Assembly: GCA_000004695.1 (NCBI GenBank)
Contig: CM000151.3
Span: 4,352,001-4,416,000 of the forward strand
Source: Dictyostelium discoideum
Lineage: Eukaryota
DNA: 64,000 nt
Reading direction: 5' to 3'
A model generated the notes under the pieces. It searched no databases. It was given only the letters and a program-made list of their open reading frames with translations, and had not been told where the DNA came from. A program made the position numbers and the translations under genes. This document shows, in pieces, positions 16,652 to 21,547 of the stretch (position 1 is the stretch's first letter; each line of letters opens with the position of its first letter).

Positions 16652-19600
16652 TTAGAGGTTGAATACTTTAGTTTTATCCAAAGAAGATAAGAAATGGACT
16701 GGTAAAATGGTTTCTTTAACTTCAACCATTATCAATGAAACATTTCTTTGTGTTGAGAGTAAAGTATCATAAACTGCTTTTTCTCCCAAGATTGTTGGAT
16801 TAATAATTTTAAAAGCACCTGAAGTATCACTGTTTTGAGAAAATTTTTGAAGAAAAAAAAAAAAGTTAATATATAATTTTTTAAAAATTTTAAATATATT
16901 TTAAAAACTTACCCATTTGGTAATGAATATAAATTAATATTTTGAGGGAAAGTTTGAATGATTTCAGAGATTCTTTTAATGATTTCTTTATATTTCATAC
17001 CCTTTAAAACTTCCATTTTAAAGCTAAGATCAGTTTGAGAGTTTGTATTCTTGTAATTCATAATTTGGAAAGCAATGACTACTTTGTGGAAAGTGAAATT
17101 ATAGTAATCTGAGAGATATGGGAATTGTACATTCTCACGTAAAGACAATGAACGTTGACAAATGATCATTGAACCATTGGCAATCTCATAGGACTTTAAA
17201 GTTTTATGAGGATCTAAAGCACTGACACCATTTGAATCTTCACCAAACAATAACAATGGTGAATTTGGATCATCGGATTTATGGCATAATTTTTGATTTA
17301 AAAATGGTATTAAGCAACTGATTGGCGAATTTGATTGACAAACTTTGGTACTAATGAATTCGAGTTGCTTTTTGTATGGATCATAATATTTGAAAAATAT
17401 CAATATCAAATCATTATTAATTGGATCAAAGAATAAATTCTTTTCGTTTGGATTTGGTAAATTTGATACTTCCAAATGGAATCTCATTTCGGTTGCTTGA
17501 CCATGCATATTTAAATATTGTGAAACTTTTTGAAAAAATAAAAAAAAAAAAAAAAACAAAATAGAAAATTAGTATTAATTAATAAATAAATAAATTAATT
17601 AATAAATAAATAATAAATAATAAAATAAAAAAAAATTACTTACAAATATCTTCATCATCTAATAATAAAGGACATCTTGTAACTCTACTTGCTTTTGTTG
17701 GAGTTGGATCCCAAAACCAAATTCTTTGTCTTTCAAATGATACTCCATATATCATTTGAATTTGGAGTTTCAATTCCAACAATGTTGAAAGTTTTCTAAT
17801 CTTTATTGGATTGTGTTTAACAAAATCTACTAATTCAAAGCTTTGACTCTTTTCAAAATCATAATCCAAAGTTAACTTGATCGTATGATAATAAAAGTTT
17901 TCTTCATCCGATTTTTGTTTTTTTAATTTTTCATTATTTACATCATTATTACTATTTGTATTATTGATAATATCACTATTGGCTCCATCCAATATGCTAT
18001 TGTTATTATTACTGGTGGCGGTACTATTTACATCACTAATTTGTTGTTGTTGTTGTTGTTGTTGTTGTAGTTGTTGTTTTTGTTGTTGCTGTTGTTTACT
18101 ATATAATTGAATATGTTTTGATGTTTCATTTGAATAAGATAATAAATGATTTGTATCTAAAATATTTTGTGATAAAAAGTAAATTGTAACTTTTACTGTT
18201 AATGTATCATTATCTAAAAATCCATAATCATCTTTTTTAATTGTATCTAATGGTAAAAACTTTTTAAATCCCCAATTAACACTACTATAACAGAAAGTGT
18301 GGAACGAATCTAGAAATAAAAATAAAAAATATATTAATATTATTATTTTTTTTTTTTTTTAAAAAAAAAAAAAAAAAAAAACAACTTACATTTCTTTTCA
18401 GATTTTTTACTATCTTTATTAACAACTTCTAAAATGAAACAAATGTATTGTCTTATCTTTGGTTTAGTTTTTGGATCAACATAATCTAAATATAAAGAAA
18501 AGAAACCAGATGCACTATTACCACGTGGGAAAATATAAAATCTCCAATCTGTATTGTATAATTTAAAAACAGGTGAATAGAAATTTTTATCCAATGTTGA
18601 AAATCTTTCAATATTATAACTAAATGAACCAGTAACTTCCTCTAATTGATTTGATGCAATTGGTTCTTTTGTATCAATATCCATTGAATCTTGTGATTGT
18701 CCCAATGCCAATTGTTGTTGTTGTTGTTCAATCATTCCATCTTTTGATACTGACAACATTGTACATTCATCTGGATTATTATTGTTATTATTATTATTGT
18801 TATTATTATTATTATTATTATCAATAGGACCAGATGAAGATAGTGGATCTTGTTTTTGTTTCTTTTCACCACCACCAGATTTAATAAATTCACTATCAAT
18901 ATCACCATTAATTGCAGTGATCGTATTCTTTAAAAATCTTTTTGTTGGAGGGTTTTGAATTGCACTTGATGATGTGCTTCCAATATGACTATTATCCTTA
19001 CTAGTATTACTAGAACTACTATTATTATTTGATGTTAATGCTGGGAATAAATTTTTATTGAATGGAATTGGTCTTAAGAAATCTGATGCAATCACAATTA
19101 ATTCTACATTGATAATGATTGTGCCATCTTTAAAGAATCCATTCTCTGGTTTGAATAATGTTGAAATTTTCATAAATTTTTGAAATAACCAACTAAATGA
19201 ATTATATGAATAAATATTACTAATATCTAAAATAAATAAAAAATAAATAAAAAAAAAAAAAAAAAAAAAAAAGATAGTTAATAACTATACCGACTACAAA
19301 GATAATAATTTAATTTTGTAAAAAATAAAAAAAAGTTTGTTACATTTTTTAAAATTTTTTGAAGGATTATCTTGATTAACGATTTCAATTGCAAATGATA
19401 TATGCTTTCTAAGTAGTGGTTTGGTTTTAATATCAACCAAATCTAAATAAATTGAAAAATAATCTGTTAAATTCTCTAGAGGATAACTAACCAATTGCCA
19501 TAAGCATCCTGCTATTTCAAAAGTTGGTGAAAATATTAAATCTATATTTGGTTGTTTCTTTGCATAAAATGTAAATTTACCACAGTCTGGTTGTCCCAAA

Positions 19601-21547
19601 TTTGATGAAATTTCAAAACTTATTAAGAAAAAAAAAAAAAAAAAAAAAAATTAATAAAACATTATTATTATTATTATTATTATTATTATTATTATTATTA
19701 TTATTATTATTATTAATAATTAATAATTACTTGGGAGAAGGTTCAATAAAATTTGAAGACATAACAGTAAATTCAATGTTGATTATGATTGTATCATCAA
19801 CAATGAAACCTGAATCTGGGTTTAATAATGTATTTAATAAAACGAATTTTGGGAAACCAAAATTCATATTCTTATCATCATAAACATGATCGACCCATTT
19901 CTTTAAGTTCTTTTCTGGATTCTTTAAATTTATAATTTCGATTGCAAAAAATAAATGTTTGATCATTAATGGTTTAAATTTAACATCCAACAAATCCAAA
20001 TAAACTGAAAAATAATTTGGTGATGAATATCCATTTGGGAAAATATATATTCTCCTTTATTATTTTAAAAATATTTTAATTATTAGTAATTATTATTATT
20101 AATATTATTATTATTTTATTTTATTTTTATTTTAAATATATATATGTCAAACTTACCAATTCGAACCACAAACATAATAGGTTGGTGAATAAAAATTTTC
20201 AAAGTGATGAGAGAAATTTGTCAAATGATAAGAGAATTTGCCGTATGGTTTAATATCGTTTGGGTCTGATAAATCAACAGTTTTTGGCGATTGAATTTCA
20301 ACTTTTATCTTTAATTTATCGGATACTAAGTAACCATTATTTGGATTCAATAAAATTTGTAAATTTAAAAATGAAATGAATCCCCAATTTACTCCTTTAA
20401 ATGAAAATACATGATTTGATGCTATAAAATTTTAAAATAATTAATATTAGTTTAATATAAAAAATTAAGAATTAAATAATTTTTAGGAAAAAAAAAAAAA
20501 AAAAAAAAAAAAAAAAAAAAAAAAAAAAAAAAAAAAAAAAAAAAAAAAAAAAGGTGGGGGTTGTGTGTGAGTGTGTTATCAAAATTAAAAAAATTAAAAT
20601 TAAAAAAAAAAAAACAGTTATGTGACTGTGTGTATTATGAGAGAACTATCATTATTTAATAACTTACTTTTCTTTACATTCTTTGACTCATCAAATTGAT
20701 TTATTAAAGTTAATGTGAGAGTGGCCTCTTTTTGAAACATTGGATTTGTTCCGATATCATAATAATCCAAAAATATTGATATATTACCAGGACTATTATT
20801 TCCCTCTGGGAATATTAATAATCTCCTATAATTTAGAAGAAAAAAAAAAAATAAAAAAATTAAAAAAAAAAAAAAAAAAAAAGTGTGTTAATAAAATACA
20901 AATAATTTATAAAAATAATAATTTTTAAAAACTTACCAATTTGATTCACATAAATTAAATATTGGAGTATAGAAACTTTCTTTATAAGCTGAAAATGTAG
21001 GTATTTCAACTATCCAAACACCTTTGGTGGGGGTATTTTCAATAAGAGGTTTATAATTACTATTGCTACTGCTACTATTTACACTGTTGCCATTTGACAT
21101 TTTTACTACGCTATTTACACTACTACTACTGCCGCTACTGCCACTGCTGCCATTACTATTACTACTACTACTTGTATGTGCATTATTGCTACTACCACTT
21201 GGTGTACCAACTGCACTATTATCATTGTTGATGTTATTATTATTATTATTATTATTATTATTATTATTATTATTATTATTATTATTATTATTATTATTAT
21301 TATTATTATTATTGTTGTTGTTGTTGTTGTTGTTGTTGTTGTTGTTGTTGTTGCTATTTACAGAATTATTTACATTATTAATTTCATTTACTACTAGTTG
21401 ATGATTTTGATGATTTACTAAAATTGGTGTTGTGGGTGGTACCACTATGACTGTACTATTTGTATTTGTTGTTGTGGTAGTTATAGTCCCTCCGCCATTT
21501 ACAACGTCAATCATGTCAGTTATTTCATTTATACCATTGTTATTCAT
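16652..21547 (-). CDS. Roughly 1308-aa protein with four tandem MATH (TRAF-like) domains followed by USP7/HAUSP-type C-terminal ubiquitin-like domains; no USP catalytic domain
   Basis: Nine exons reconstructed in consistent phase: 21547..20937, 20825..20668, 20421..20157, 20054..19731, 19618..19344, 19226..18390, 18309..17644, 17525..16913 and 16829..16652. Every junction is GTAAGT/GTAATT/GTAACA ... (t)ag. The MATH motifs are GVWIVEIPTFSAYKESFYTPIFNLCESNW|RLLIFPEG..., GKFSYHLTNFSHHFENFYSPTYYVCGSNW|RIYIFPNG..., GKFTFYAKKQ...CLWQLVSYP... and GSFSYNIERFSTLDKNFYSPVFKLYNTDWRFYIFPRG..., each ending in WGF...GF.DDT..I. The C-terminal part aligns with the USP7 UBL region: IKIRKLSTLLELKLQIQMIYGVSFERQRIWFWDPTPTKASRVTRCPLLLDDED matches USP7 ...[29 protein letters not shown], and LILIFFKYYDPYKKQLEFISTKVCQSNSPISCLIPFLNQKLC matches USP7 [37 protein letters not shown]. 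Only a poly-Q linker, with no Cys-box or His-box, lies between MATH4 and the UBL region. Confidence 0.75.

What the first reader, a model, noticed from the sequence alone, without database searches (positions are those of the whole stretch)
16652..21547. Four tandem MATH domains fused to USP7-type ubiquitin-like domains with no deubiquitinase catalytic domain
USP7/HAUSP is normally one MATH domain, then the USP catalytic domain, then five UBLs. Here a 9-exon gene encodes four consecutive MATH domains and then goes, through only a poly-Q linker, into sequence that aligns to the USP7 UBL1-3 region (the ICP0-binding and USP7_C2 regions). No Cys-box or His-box is present anywhere in the gene. This is either a DUB-dead USP7 paralog that keeps both substrate-recruiting ends, or an unusual MATH scaffold. 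The introns that split MATH1 and MATH2 sit at the identical position, right after the conserved Trp in phase 2, which suggests a recent tandem duplication of an exon pair. The gene lies directly beside an unusual E2 (next finding), forming a small ubiquitin-system neighbourhood.
Basis: partly seen in the sequence, partly recalled or inferred. Interest (0 to 1): 0.75.

Follow-up and report, generated by a model that had tools for sequence, protein, structure and literature searches.

The report
USP7 paralog without its enzyme domain
This social-amoeba gene is an old, well-conserved copy of the deubiquitinase USP7 that has lost the enzyme domain and kept only its protein-binding parts, now four MATH domains plus three ubiquitin-like domains, so it most likely acts as a non-enzymatic adaptor in the ubiquitin system.

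Summary
On the minus strand, 21547-16652, nine exons encode a 1308-aa protein. It has a low-complexity N-terminus, four USP7-type MATH domains, a poly-Q/N linker and USP7 UBL1-3 (Pfam USP7_ICP0_bdg, E 3e-31).

No USP catalytic domain, Cys box, His box or UBL4-5 (USP7_C2) is found in the gene or anywhere in the 64 kb.

The same architecture occurs in D. citrinum (97% identical), Polysphondylium violaceum, Cavenderia fasciculata and Acytostelium subglobosum. Intron-free contigs in five JGI samples appear to be spliced mRNA. It is one real gene, present since before the dictyostelid radiation.

Its UBLs group with dictyostelid USP7 (99% bootstrap). Two intron positions are shared with a USP7 gene, so it descends from USP7. 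The MATH domains are 66-92% conserved between distant species, versus 56% for one USP7 MATH pair compared.

The MATH duplication is ancient, not recent. The neighbouring E2 is BIRC6-like, and the adjacency is conserved in three of four other species.

Most likely function: a non-catalytic scaffold with four different binding domains. No paper on it was found. I rate it a new variant of a known kind, of moderate interest.

The parts
16652..21547 (-). Whole coding region of the MATH4-UBL gene. It has 9 exons and 8 introns and encodes 1308 aa plus a stop.
   Evidence: Exon/intron reconstruction. The protein is 97% identical to the D. citrinum protein P0074, whose independent annotation has the same 8 intron positions.
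21023..21547 (-). N-terminal low-complexity region (aa 1-175; poly-N and Ser-rich). It is not conserved.
   Evidence: Identity to distant orthologs is 18-39%. There is no Pfam hit.
20288..21022 (-). MATH1 (aa 176-301). It is split by intron 1 (20936-20826, phase 2, inside the W204 codon) and intron 2 (20667-20422, phase 1, after 'KK').
   Evidence: Identity to branch-I orthologs is 72-78%.
19763..20242 (-). MATH2 (aa 317-442), the most conserved domain. It is split by intron 3 (20156-20055, phase 2, inside the W345 codon).
   Evidence: Identity to branch-I orthologs is 84-92%. The best PDB hit is the human USP7 TRAF domain, E 4e-10.
19084..19584 (-). MATH3 (aa 465-592). It is preceded by intron 4 (19730-19619, phase 2) and split by intron 5 (19343-19227, phase 1, after 'KK').
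   Evidence: Identity to branch-I orthologs is 68-84%.
18628..19062 (-). Low-complexity linker between MATH3 and MATH4 (aa 600-744). It is not conserved.
   Evidence: Identity to distant orthologs is 13-35%.
18170..18627 (-). MATH4 (aa 745-870), split by intron 6 (18389-18310, phase 1, after 'KK'). Its groove residues are the closest to those of the dictyostelid USP7 MATH domain.
17906..18169 (-). Conserved post-MATH4 segment, poly-Q/N linker and the conserved 'EKLKKQKSDEE' stretch (aa 871-958). This is the place where USP7 carries its catalytic domain.
   Evidence: The exon 18309-17644 is continuous. There is no UCH signal.
17654..17893 (-). UBL1 (aa 963-1042).
   Evidence: It aligns to human USP7 from residue 566. 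There is a weak Pfam ubiquitin hit. Identity to orthologs is 61-87%.
17146..17644 (-). UBL2 (aa 1046-1172). It starts right after intron 7 (17643-17526, phase 1).
   Evidence: Pfam USP7_ICP0_bdg. The AlphaFold model has pLDDT 86. Its top 22 Foldseek PDB matches are all USP7 UBL structures.
16691..17145 (-). UBL3 (aa 1173-1296), split by intron 8 (16912-16830, phase 2). The protein ends 12 aa later, and no UBL4-5 follows.
12366..15779 (-). Neighbouring gene, which is context and is not shown to be part of the system. It is a BIRC6-type E2 that starts 873 nt downstream on the same strand.
   Evidence: UQ_con, E 7e-25. ORF aa 70-582 aligns to human BIRC6 4259-4785, E 9e-91. Its first exon and the UBC-containing ORF are found directly downstream of the orthologs in L001, L003 and L004 but not L002.

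Best explanation
The gene encodes a non-catalytic descendant of USP7.

Origin. A USP7 gene was duplicated in the stem lineage of the dictyostelid social amoebae. The copy lost the whole USP protease domain by internal deletion. It also lost UBL4-5 and the C-terminal activating peptide by truncation. Its MATH domain was multiplied to four. The result has been kept under strong purifying selection ever since.

How it most likely works (inferred). It cannot cleave ubiquitin. It probably acts as a scaffold or adaptor. Each of the four different MATH domains would use the canonical MATH peptide groove to bind its own short linear motif or partner, and UBL1-3 would provide a further docking surface. 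In this way it would assemble or sequester proteins of the ubiquitin system rather than deubiquitinate them.

Shown: the architecture, the absence of catalytic sequence, descent from USP7, conservation, and expression as one mRNA in a related species.

Inferred: peptide binding, four different specificities, and the scaffold role.
For: Architecture and absence of the enzyme:
- Pfam finds MATH_2 four times and USP7_ICP0_bdg, with no UCH and no USP7_C2.
- Local phmmer with pieces of P. violaceum USP7 gives the same result.
- tblastn of USP7 proteins against the whole window finds no catalytic or UBL4-5 match.
- No Cys or His box occurs in any frame.
- A single exon joins MATH4 to UBL1.

USP7 descent:
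- MATH2 and MATH4 hit the human USP7 TRAF domain at E 4e-10, against SPOP at 1e-3 to 1e-5.
- The C-terminus aligns to human USP7 566-840.
- The AlphaFold model of exon 8 (pLDDT 86) matches only USP7 UBL structures in its top 22 PDB hits.
- In the search of 1.84 billion representatives, the best non-orthologous hits are dictyostelid USP7 proteins, at 36-37% identity and E 1e-17 to 1e-22. Other eukaryotes score 3e-12 or weaker.
- In the NJ tree, the paralogs plus dictyostelid USP7 form a clade with 99% bootstrap.
- The phase-2 intron inside the MATH Trp codon is shared with P. violaceum USP7. A phase-2 intron in UBL2/3 is shared between the C. fasciculata paralog and P. violaceum USP7.

A real, single, old gene:
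- Orthologs with the same Pfam set exist in D. citrinum, P. violaceum, C. fasciculata, A. subglobosum, one JGI species and one EukProt species.
- Six of the 8 intron positions are shared with branch-I species.
- Five JGI contigs carry the complete ORF with all seven P. violaceum introns precisely removed.

Selection:
- The MATH domains are 66-92% identical and UBL1 is 61-87% identical between distant species, while the linkers are 13-39% identical.
- USP7's own MATH domain is 56% identical between P. violaceum and Synstelium.

Binding groove:
- Hydrophobic groove positions (human W97, M100, M102, F118, W165, F167) stay hydrophobic in all four domains.
- The polar positions (R104, D164, S168) differ from one domain to the next. 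Within each domain, D164 is invariant across the four species, and R104 and S168 vary only by a conservative change (K/R in MATH4, V/I in MATH1).
- The four domains are only 26-41% identical to each other. That argues for four distinct conserved specificities rather than four copies of one site.
Against: - No binding, localisation, expression or phenotype data exist for this protein in the papers searched.
- The Asp that contacts the Ser of the P/AxxS motif in USP7 (D164) is replaced by Asn or Ser in every MATH copy. The canonical USP7 ligand class may therefore not be bound.
- The acidic patch on human UBL2 that binds KxxxK peptides (D758, E759, D762, D764) reads Y, E, N, S here. It is also incomplete in dictyostelid USP7, so the UBL ligands cannot be inferred.
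- The full-length AlphaFold model was of low confidence (pLDDT 47). Nothing is known about how the domains are arranged.
- The NJ tree could be helped by shared amino-acid composition bias in AT-rich genomes.
- Transcript evidence comes from a related species, not from this genome.
Confidence: 0.7

Rival explanations
1. USP7 decoy. The protein binds the same substrates and regulators as the genuine USP7 through homologous MATH and UBL1-3 surfaces. Because it cannot deubiquitinate them, it acts as a built-in competitive inhibitor that tunes USP7 output.
For: - Both binding modules derive from USP7.
- MATH4 has almost the same groove residues as dictyostelid USP7.
- USP7 and the paralog coexist in P. 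violaceum.
Against: - The key Asp (D164) is changed in all four MATH domains while USP7 keeps it.
- MATH1-3 have groove residues unlike those of USP7.
- The paralog's MATH domains are more conserved than the one USP7 MATH pair compared. That is not expected if they merely track USP7's ligands.
Confidence: 0.12
2. Substrate receptor for the neighbouring BIRC6-type E2. The MATH4-UBL protein recruits clients to, or docks onto, the large E2 encoded directly downstream. Together they would form an E3-independent ubiquitylation module.
For: - The E2 is the next gene, on the same strand, in the window, D. citrinum, P. violaceum (440-nt gap) and C. fasciculata (557-nt gap). The other neighbours differ between these loci.
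- The E2 matches the C-terminal ~530 aa of BIRC6, a dual E2/E3 enzyme.
- From general knowledge, not tested here: USP7's MATH domain is known to bind an E2 (UbE2E1).
Against: - The adjacency is lost in A. subglobosum.
- The upstream WD40 gene is also syntenic with A. subglobosum, so residual microsynteny is enough to explain the pair.
- Gene order in these eukaryotes is not generally functional.
- There is no interaction evidence.
Confidence: 0.12
3. Independent assembly. An unrelated multi-MATH protein acquired USP7-type UBLs by exon shuffling, rather than a USP7 copy losing its catalytic domain.
For: - Multi-MATH proteins without other domains exist in plants (PMC4923191).
- USP7-type UBLs occur with other partners, for example zf-LSD1 in P0040.
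Against: - Both ends hit USP7 best.
- The domain order is the same as in USP7.
- MATH4, the copy next to the UBLs, is the most USP7-like.
- USP7-shared introns occur in both the MATH and the UBL parts.
- The stretch just ahead of UBL1 aligns with the corresponding pre-UBL1 region of USP7.
Confidence: 0.04
4. Artefact. The locus is really several genes, a decaying USP7 pseudogene, or a gene with a missed catalytic exon.
For: No transcript data exist for this genome. Intron 2 is long (246 nt) and contains a G/T-rich island.
Against: - Every intron except intron 4 lies inside a domain, and intron 4 is 112 nt with no ATG available downstream.
- The orthologous mRNA contigs are continuous.
- Conservation is very high.
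- The introns total 969 nt of AT-rich sequence, and there is no USP signal in 64 kb.
Confidence: 0.02

Closest known systems
USP7/HAUSP (ubiquitin-specific protease 7; the dictyostelid ortholog is, for example, P. violaceum KAF2072827.1)
   Same: - It has a USP7-type MATH/TRAF domain, followed, after the position of the catalytic domain, by UBL1-UBL2-UBL3 in the same order.
- It is sister to dictyostelid USP7 in the UBL tree.
- It shares intron positions with USP7 in the MATH Trp codon and in UBL2/3.
   Different: - It has no USP catalytic domain at all, no UBL4-5 and no C-terminal activating peptide.
- It has four MATH domains instead of one.
- The groove Asp (D164) is replaced by Asn or Ser.
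- Its MATH domains are more conserved among dictyostelids than the one USP7 MATH pair compared.
Multi-MATH ('MATH-only', 2M-4M) proteins of plants
   Same: Both have several tandem MATH domains and no enzymatic domain. Both are presumed to be protein-interaction adaptors.
   Different: The plant proteins lack USP7 UBLs. I did not test whether they relate to USP7 MATH domains, so this is a resemblance of architecture only (PMC4923191).
SPOP / MATH-BTB Cullin-3 adaptors
   Same: Both have a MATH domain with the xWGF peptide-binding strand, and both show multivalent substrate recognition. SPOP achieves this by oligomerisation, this protein by tandem domains.
   Different: This protein has no BTB domain. 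SPOP is a weaker sequence match than USP7.
Pseudo-deubiquitinases (USP-fold proteins that lack catalytic residues)
   Same: Both are members of a DUB lineage that have lost the activity but are retained by selection.
   Different: Pseudo-DUBs keep the USP fold. Here the fold is deleted entirely and only the accessory domains remain.
Other MATH + USP7-UBL predictions without UCH (partial Gigaspora margarita CAG8748179.1; Pigoraptor transcripts)
   Same: In these, MATH is followed directly by USP7_ICP0_bdg with no room for a catalytic domain.
   Different: They have a single MATH domain, are partial or truncated models and are not conserved families. They are likely independent events or pseudogenes.

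Membership tests
USP7/HAUSP subfamily of USP deubiquitinases | USP (UCH, PF00443) catalytic domain with Cys box and His box | tested here: not met
   Pfam gives no UCH at E<=1. phmmer with the USP7 catalytic domain finds nothing. tblastn of USP7 proteins against the 64 kb finds nothing. A motif scan of six frames finds nothing, while the positive control is found.
USP7/HAUSP subfamily of USP deubiquitinases | N-terminal TRAF/MATH domain of USP7 type | tested here: met
   MATH_2 is found four times, E 1.7e-71. The best solved-structure hits are the USP7 TRAF domain, E 4e-10, ahead of SPOP.
USP7/HAUSP subfamily of USP deubiquitinases | UBL1-3 (USP7_ICP0_bdg, PF12436) | tested here: met
   E 3.4e-31. 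It aligns to human USP7 566-840. The predicted fold matches USP7 UBL structures with TM 0.6-0.68.
USP7/HAUSP subfamily of USP deubiquitinases | UBL4-5 and C-terminal activating peptide (USP7_C2, PF14533) | tested here: not met
   There is no Pfam hit, no phmmer hit and no tblastn hit. The stop codon lies about 12 aa after UBL3.
USP7/HAUSP subfamily of USP deubiquitinases | Descent from the USP7 gene lineage | tested here: met
   The NJ clade with dictyostelid USP7 has 99% bootstrap. Two intron positions and phases are shared. The caveat is that this is a distance tree with limited sampling.
MATH domains that bind peptides through the canonical groove (USP7 P/AxxS, SPOP SBC) | Conserved groove: hydrophobic residues plus the D-W-G-F strand | tested here: inconclusive
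   The hydrophobic positions are kept. DWGF is replaced by NWGF (MATH1, MATH4), NFGF (MATH2) and SWLF (MATH3), invariant in four species. Binding itself cannot be tested here.
MATH-BTB (SPOP-like) adaptors | BTB/POZ domain that binds Cullin-3 | tested here: not met
   There is no BTB hit in Pfam.
TRAF proteins | RING and TRAF zinc fingers, and a coiled coil ahead of the MATH domain | tested here: not met
   There is no RING or zf-TRAF hit in Pfam.
Pseudo-DUBs (inactive USP fold) | A retained USP fold that lacks catalytic residues | tested here: not met
   No sequence similar to the USP domain remains. Only 88 residues (aa 871-958) lie between MATH4 and UBL1, part conserved and part poly-Q/N.
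Dictyostelid MATH4-UBL family (defined here) | Four MATH domains plus UBL1-3, with one-to-one orthology across Dictyostelia | tested here: met
   There are six further members with the same Pfam set. The alignment is collinear. Intron positions are shared.

The most novel reading that the evidence does not exclude
The MATH4-UBL protein is the client-recruiting subunit of the BIRC6-type E2 encoded immediately downstream. The pair would have been kept adjacent since the last common ancestor of dictyostelids. Together they would form a two-gene, E3-independent ubiquitylation machine in which a former deubiquitinase has been converted into the substrate receptor of a conjugating enzyme.
Probability: 0.1. 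Interest if true: 0.75.

Novelty: new variant of a known kind. Interest (0 to 1): 0.5.

Why it matters
USP7 is one of the most studied deubiquitinases. Much of its biology is attributed to substrate docking by the MATH domain and UBL1-3.

Here evolution has removed the enzyme and its activation module, multiplied the MATH domain and kept the result under tighter constraint than the one USP7 MATH pair compared, across the whole dictyostelid radiation. That gives a genetically tractable system (Dictyostelium) in which to ask what the USP7 docking modules do on their own. It also shows that an enzyme's accessory domains can outlive the enzyme as an independent scaffold.

The family is present in public protein sets only as 'hypothetical' or 'MATH domain-containing' protein. 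I found no paper that describes it.

It is not a new kind of system. All its parts are known domains, and proteins that are only adaptors are common in ubiquitin biology.

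Tried and rejected
- The word-indexed protein search with the spliced 351-aa C-terminus found nothing. The later searches returned only the six family members, because low-complexity words filled the candidate list. 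Absence from other dictyostelids such as Heterostelium album cannot be concluded.
- The exact-sequence look-up of my model is uninformative. The pasted copy lacked one Asn of the 40-residue poly-N run. For the same reason, residue numbers are one lower than in the true 1308-aa model after about aa 105.
I therefore used exon 8 alone as the query.
I replaced it with tblastn and motif scans.
- The full-length AlphaFold model of the A. subglobosum ortholog, built on 6 sequences, had pLDDT 47.5. It shows only secondary structure consistent with four beta-sandwiches and beta-grasp domains, so I did not use it for fold search.
- Literature searches on Dictyostelium with MATH or USP7, on catalytic-domain-less USP7 paralogs and on multi-MATH proteins found no paper on this protein.
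- I looked for a published baseline of gene-order conservation across dictyostelid groups to judge the E2 adjacency and found none usable.
- Several separate genes, a pseudogene and a missed catalytic exon were considered and rejected, as set out under the rival explanations.

Full report
**What is there**

The window is about 22% G+C with short AT-only introns and looks like a Dictyostelium genome. The encoded protein is 97% identical to a D. citrinum protein, so the source is D. discoideum or a very close relative.

It lies on the minus strand. The ATG is at 21547 and the stop codon ends at 16652.
- The nine exons are 21547-20937, 20825-20668, 20421-20157, 20054-19731, 19618-19344, 19226-18390, 18309-17644, 17525-16913 and 16829-16652.
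- Together they encode 1308 aa.
- All eight introns begin with GTA and end with AG. They are 80-246 nt long and 4-14% G+C.

Pfam finds four MATH_2 stretches (E 1.7e-71) and USP7_ICP0_bdg (E 3.4e-31). It finds nothing else of note: no UCH and no USP7_C2.

A caution on numbering. The copy I pasted lacked one Asn of the poly-N run. Numbers from those calls are one too low after about aa 105.

**Is the catalytic domain really absent?**

Yes, by several independent checks.
- phmmer with the catalytic domain (aa 239-548) and with the UBL4-5 region (aa 862-1151) of P. violaceum USP7 finds nothing in the model, but finds both in ordinary USP7 proteins.
- tblastn of eight full-length USP7 proteins against the whole 64 kb was run at E<=10; the rows inspected, for three of them, match only the MATH and UBL1-3 segments of this gene.
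- Cys-box and His-box patterns are absent from all six frames, while the same patterns find both boxes in the control.
- The eight introns total 969 nt of AT-rich sequence.
- Exon 7 (18309-17644) runs without interruption from the second half of MATH4 through the poly-Q tract into UBL1.

The C-terminal region aligns to human USP7 residues 566-840, which is UBL1-3, and the protein ends about 12 residues after UBL3. An AlphaFold model of exon 8 built on 44 homologs has pLDDT 86. Its 22 best Foldseek matches in the PDB are all USP7 UBL structures, with TM 0.6-0.68.

That region (UBL4-5) and the activating tail are missing along with the enzyme they regulate.

**One gene, and an old one**

A HMMER search of 1.84 billion representative proteins with exon 8 gave one close hit, an Acytostelium subglobosum 'hypothetical protein' with the same architecture. 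The next best hits were ordinary USP7 proteins.

Further searches added more members with the same Pfam set:
- Cavenderia fasciculata DFA_01656
- Polysphondylium violaceum CYY_002911
- Dictyostelium citrinum ACTFIV_002908
- a JGI protein
- a EukProt protein

The seven sequences align collinearly. The domains are nearly invariant and the linkers are free to vary.

I mapped exons exactly on four genomes.
- The independently annotated D. citrinum gene has the same eight introns.
- Six of the eight positions are shared with C. fasciculata and/or A. subglobosum.

Five JGI contigs from five samples carry the complete 1196-aa ORF uninterrupted. Aligned to the P. violaceum genome, they consist of that gene's eight exons abutting each other. 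I read these contigs as spliced mRNA of a Polysphondylium-like species. The sample type itself was not checked.

Six of the window's eight junction positions are covered this way. The other two (W345 and aa 1250) rest on frame and homology continuity and on the D. citrinum and C. fasciculata annotations.

**Where it came from**

Three lines of evidence point to USP7.
- MATH2 and MATH4 hit the human USP7 TRAF domain at E 4e-10 and SPOP only at 1e-3 to 1e-5.
- The UBL2/3 exon is 36-37% identical to dictyostelid USP7 proteins (Synstelium, P. violaceum, Heterostelium; E 1e-17 to 1e-22). Other eukaryotic USP7 proteins are mostly about 21-34% identical at E of 3e-12 or weaker, including the amoebozoans Dracoamoeba and Sappinia.
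- An NJ tree of UBL1-3 (28 sequences, 325 columns, 100 bootstraps) gives 100% for the paralog clade, 100% for dictyostelid USP7 and 99% for the two together.

Gene structure agrees. The P. violaceum USP7 gene has a phase-2 intron inside the conserved MATH Trp codon. A phase-2 intron in UBL2/3 of the C. fasciculata paralog falls in the same alignment column as a phase-2 intron of P. violaceum USP7.

MATH4, the copy that sits where USP7's single MATH domain would be relative to the UBLs, has groove residues almost identical to those of dictyostelid USP7.

The simplest history has four steps, all before the dictyostelid radiation:
1. duplication of USP7 in the dictyostelid stem;
2. internal deletion of the protease domain;
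3. loss of UBL4-5;
4. amplification of the MATH unit.

The 'recent tandem duplication' reading fails on three counts.
- MATH1 and MATH2 are 36% identical, and the range over all pairs is 26-41%.
- Each domain has a one-to-one ortholog in every species.
- The Trp intron is ancestral.

A second shared intron, in phase 1 after a conserved 'KK' in MATH1, MATH3 and MATH4, supports internal duplication of a unit with two introns followed by differential loss.

**Selection and likely mechanism**

Identity between the window protein and the A. subglobosum and C. fasciculata orthologs:

| Region | A. subglobosum | C. fasciculata |
|---|---|---|
| MATH1 | 72% | 78% |
| MATH2 | 84% | 92% |
| MATH3 | 68% | 84% |
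| MATH4 | 66% | 77% |
| UBL1 | 61% | 72% |
| UBL2 | 57% | 55% |
| UBL3 | 34% | 44% |

The low-complexity linkers are 13-29% identical in the same comparison. USP7's own MATH domain is 56% identical between P. violaceum and Synstelium, and its UBL1-3 are 41-54% identical to Synstelium or Heterostelium. This is not a decaying copy.

I mapped residues onto human USP7.
- The hydrophobic groove positions (W97, M100, M102, F118, W165, F167) remain hydrophobic in all four domains.
- The polar positions differ from one domain to the next: R104 becomes E, N, L and K/R, and D164 becomes N, N, S and N, in MATH1 to MATH4 respectively.
- Within each domain, D164 is invariant in all four species, R104 varies only K/R in MATH4, and S168 varies only V/I in MATH1.

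My inference is four intact peptide grooves with four different, conserved specificities. That would make the protein a scaffold with four different binding sites, rather than four copies of one site that simply add binding strength, and rather than a plain USP7 mimic.

What the UBLs bind cannot be inferred. The human UBL2 acidic patch (D758, E759, D762, D764) reads Y, E, N, S here, and it is incomplete in dictyostelid USP7 too.

Domain content and selection are shown. Peptide binding and the scaffold role are inferred.

**The neighbourhood**

The E2 gene starts at 15779, 873 nt downstream on the same strand.
- Its first exon and its UBC-containing ORF (14183-12366) are found directly downstream of the orthologs in D. 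citrinum, P. violaceum (440-nt gap) and C. fasciculata (557-nt gap). They are not found in A. subglobosum, where a Ras gene follows.
- Other neighbours differ between these loci. The exception is a WD40 gene upstream, which the window shares with A. subglobosum.
- The E2 ORF aligns over aa 70-582 to human BIRC6 4259-4785 at E 9e-91. It is a short BIRC6-type E2.

The conserved adjacency is a lead for a functional pair. Residual microsynteny (WD40, then MATH4-UBL, then E2) explains it equally well, and I could not obtain a genome-wide baseline.

**Comparison and novelty**

It works like the docking half of USP7 but fails membership of the USP7 enzyme family on two defining features, the USP domain and UBL4-5 with the tail.
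- It is not a MATH-BTB or TRAF protein.
- It is not a classical pseudo-DUB, because no USP fold remains.
- Plants have multi-MATH proteins without UBLs (PMC4923191).
- Isolated predictions of MATH plus USP7 UBLs without UCH exist in Gigaspora and Pigoraptor. They are partial and have a single MATH domain.

The dictyostelid family is in the sequence databases only as 'hypothetical' or 'MATH domain-containing protein'. No paper on it turned up in the open-access and bioRxiv text I could search. That library omits most subscription journals.

I rate it a new variant of a known kind. It is real, conserved and uncharacterised, and of moderate interest.

Noticed in passing
window 12366-15779 (-): The downstream E2 is a short BIRC6-type enzyme. 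ORF aa 70-582 aligns to human BIRC6 residues 4259-4785 (E 9e-91), which is well beyond the UBC core. The BIR domain and the giant N-terminal part are absent. Orthologs of 801-923 aa sit in the same position in three other dictyostelids.
   Followed up: partly
window 24727-26417 (-); L002 6685-8355: A WD40-repeat gene with an acidic C-terminal tail lies upstream of the MATH4-UBL gene. It is also the upstream neighbour in A. subglobosum. The ancestral order may have been WD40, then MATH4-UBL, then E2.
   Followed up: partly
L006 2219-3956 (Gigaspora margarita CAJVQB010011502.1); P0059/P0068 (Pigoraptor); P0040: USP7-type UBLs occur without a catalytic domain elsewhere. A partial Gigaspora gene has MATH and UBL1-2 only about 220 nt apart in the genome. 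Pigoraptor transcripts carry MATH plus ICP0_bdg. An ENA protein combines an LSD1 zinc finger with ICP0_bdg. These may be independent losses or reuses of the USP7 docking modules.
   Followed up: partly
L007 41-319 and 506-4096: One of the intron-free JGI contigs carries the upstream DUF1674 ORF and the complete MATH4-UBL ORF 186 nt apart. In the P. violaceum genome the two genes are about 1.7 kb apart. This may be a read-through transcript, an assembly join or a species difference.
   Followed up: no
P0002 (Synstelium polycarpum EukProt model, 1530 aa): This USP7 model has an extra ~550-aa N-terminal region ahead of the MATH domain. It is probably a fusion of two neighbouring gene models rather than a real architecture.
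   Followed up: no
window 20422-20667 (intron 2): This is the longest intron (246 nt). It contains a homopolymer run of about 50 nt and a G/T-rich island (about 20553-20580), which is unusual for the otherwise AT-only introns. The D. citrinum counterpart is 195 nt.
   Followed up: no
window 27150-30268 (-): ORFs that look like exons of a polo-like kinase, with very long poly-Q/N tracts. This is my reading of the ORF translations; no domain search was run on them.
   Followed up: no
window 11008-11964 (-) and 7088-9466 (-): A 318-aa Ser/Thr-rich protein with a hydrophobic N-terminus that looks like a signal peptide, and a 792-aa protein that looks like a coiled coil. Both readings come from the ORF translations with no prediction run. 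Both are collinear with D. citrinum and neither was examined further.
   Followed up: no
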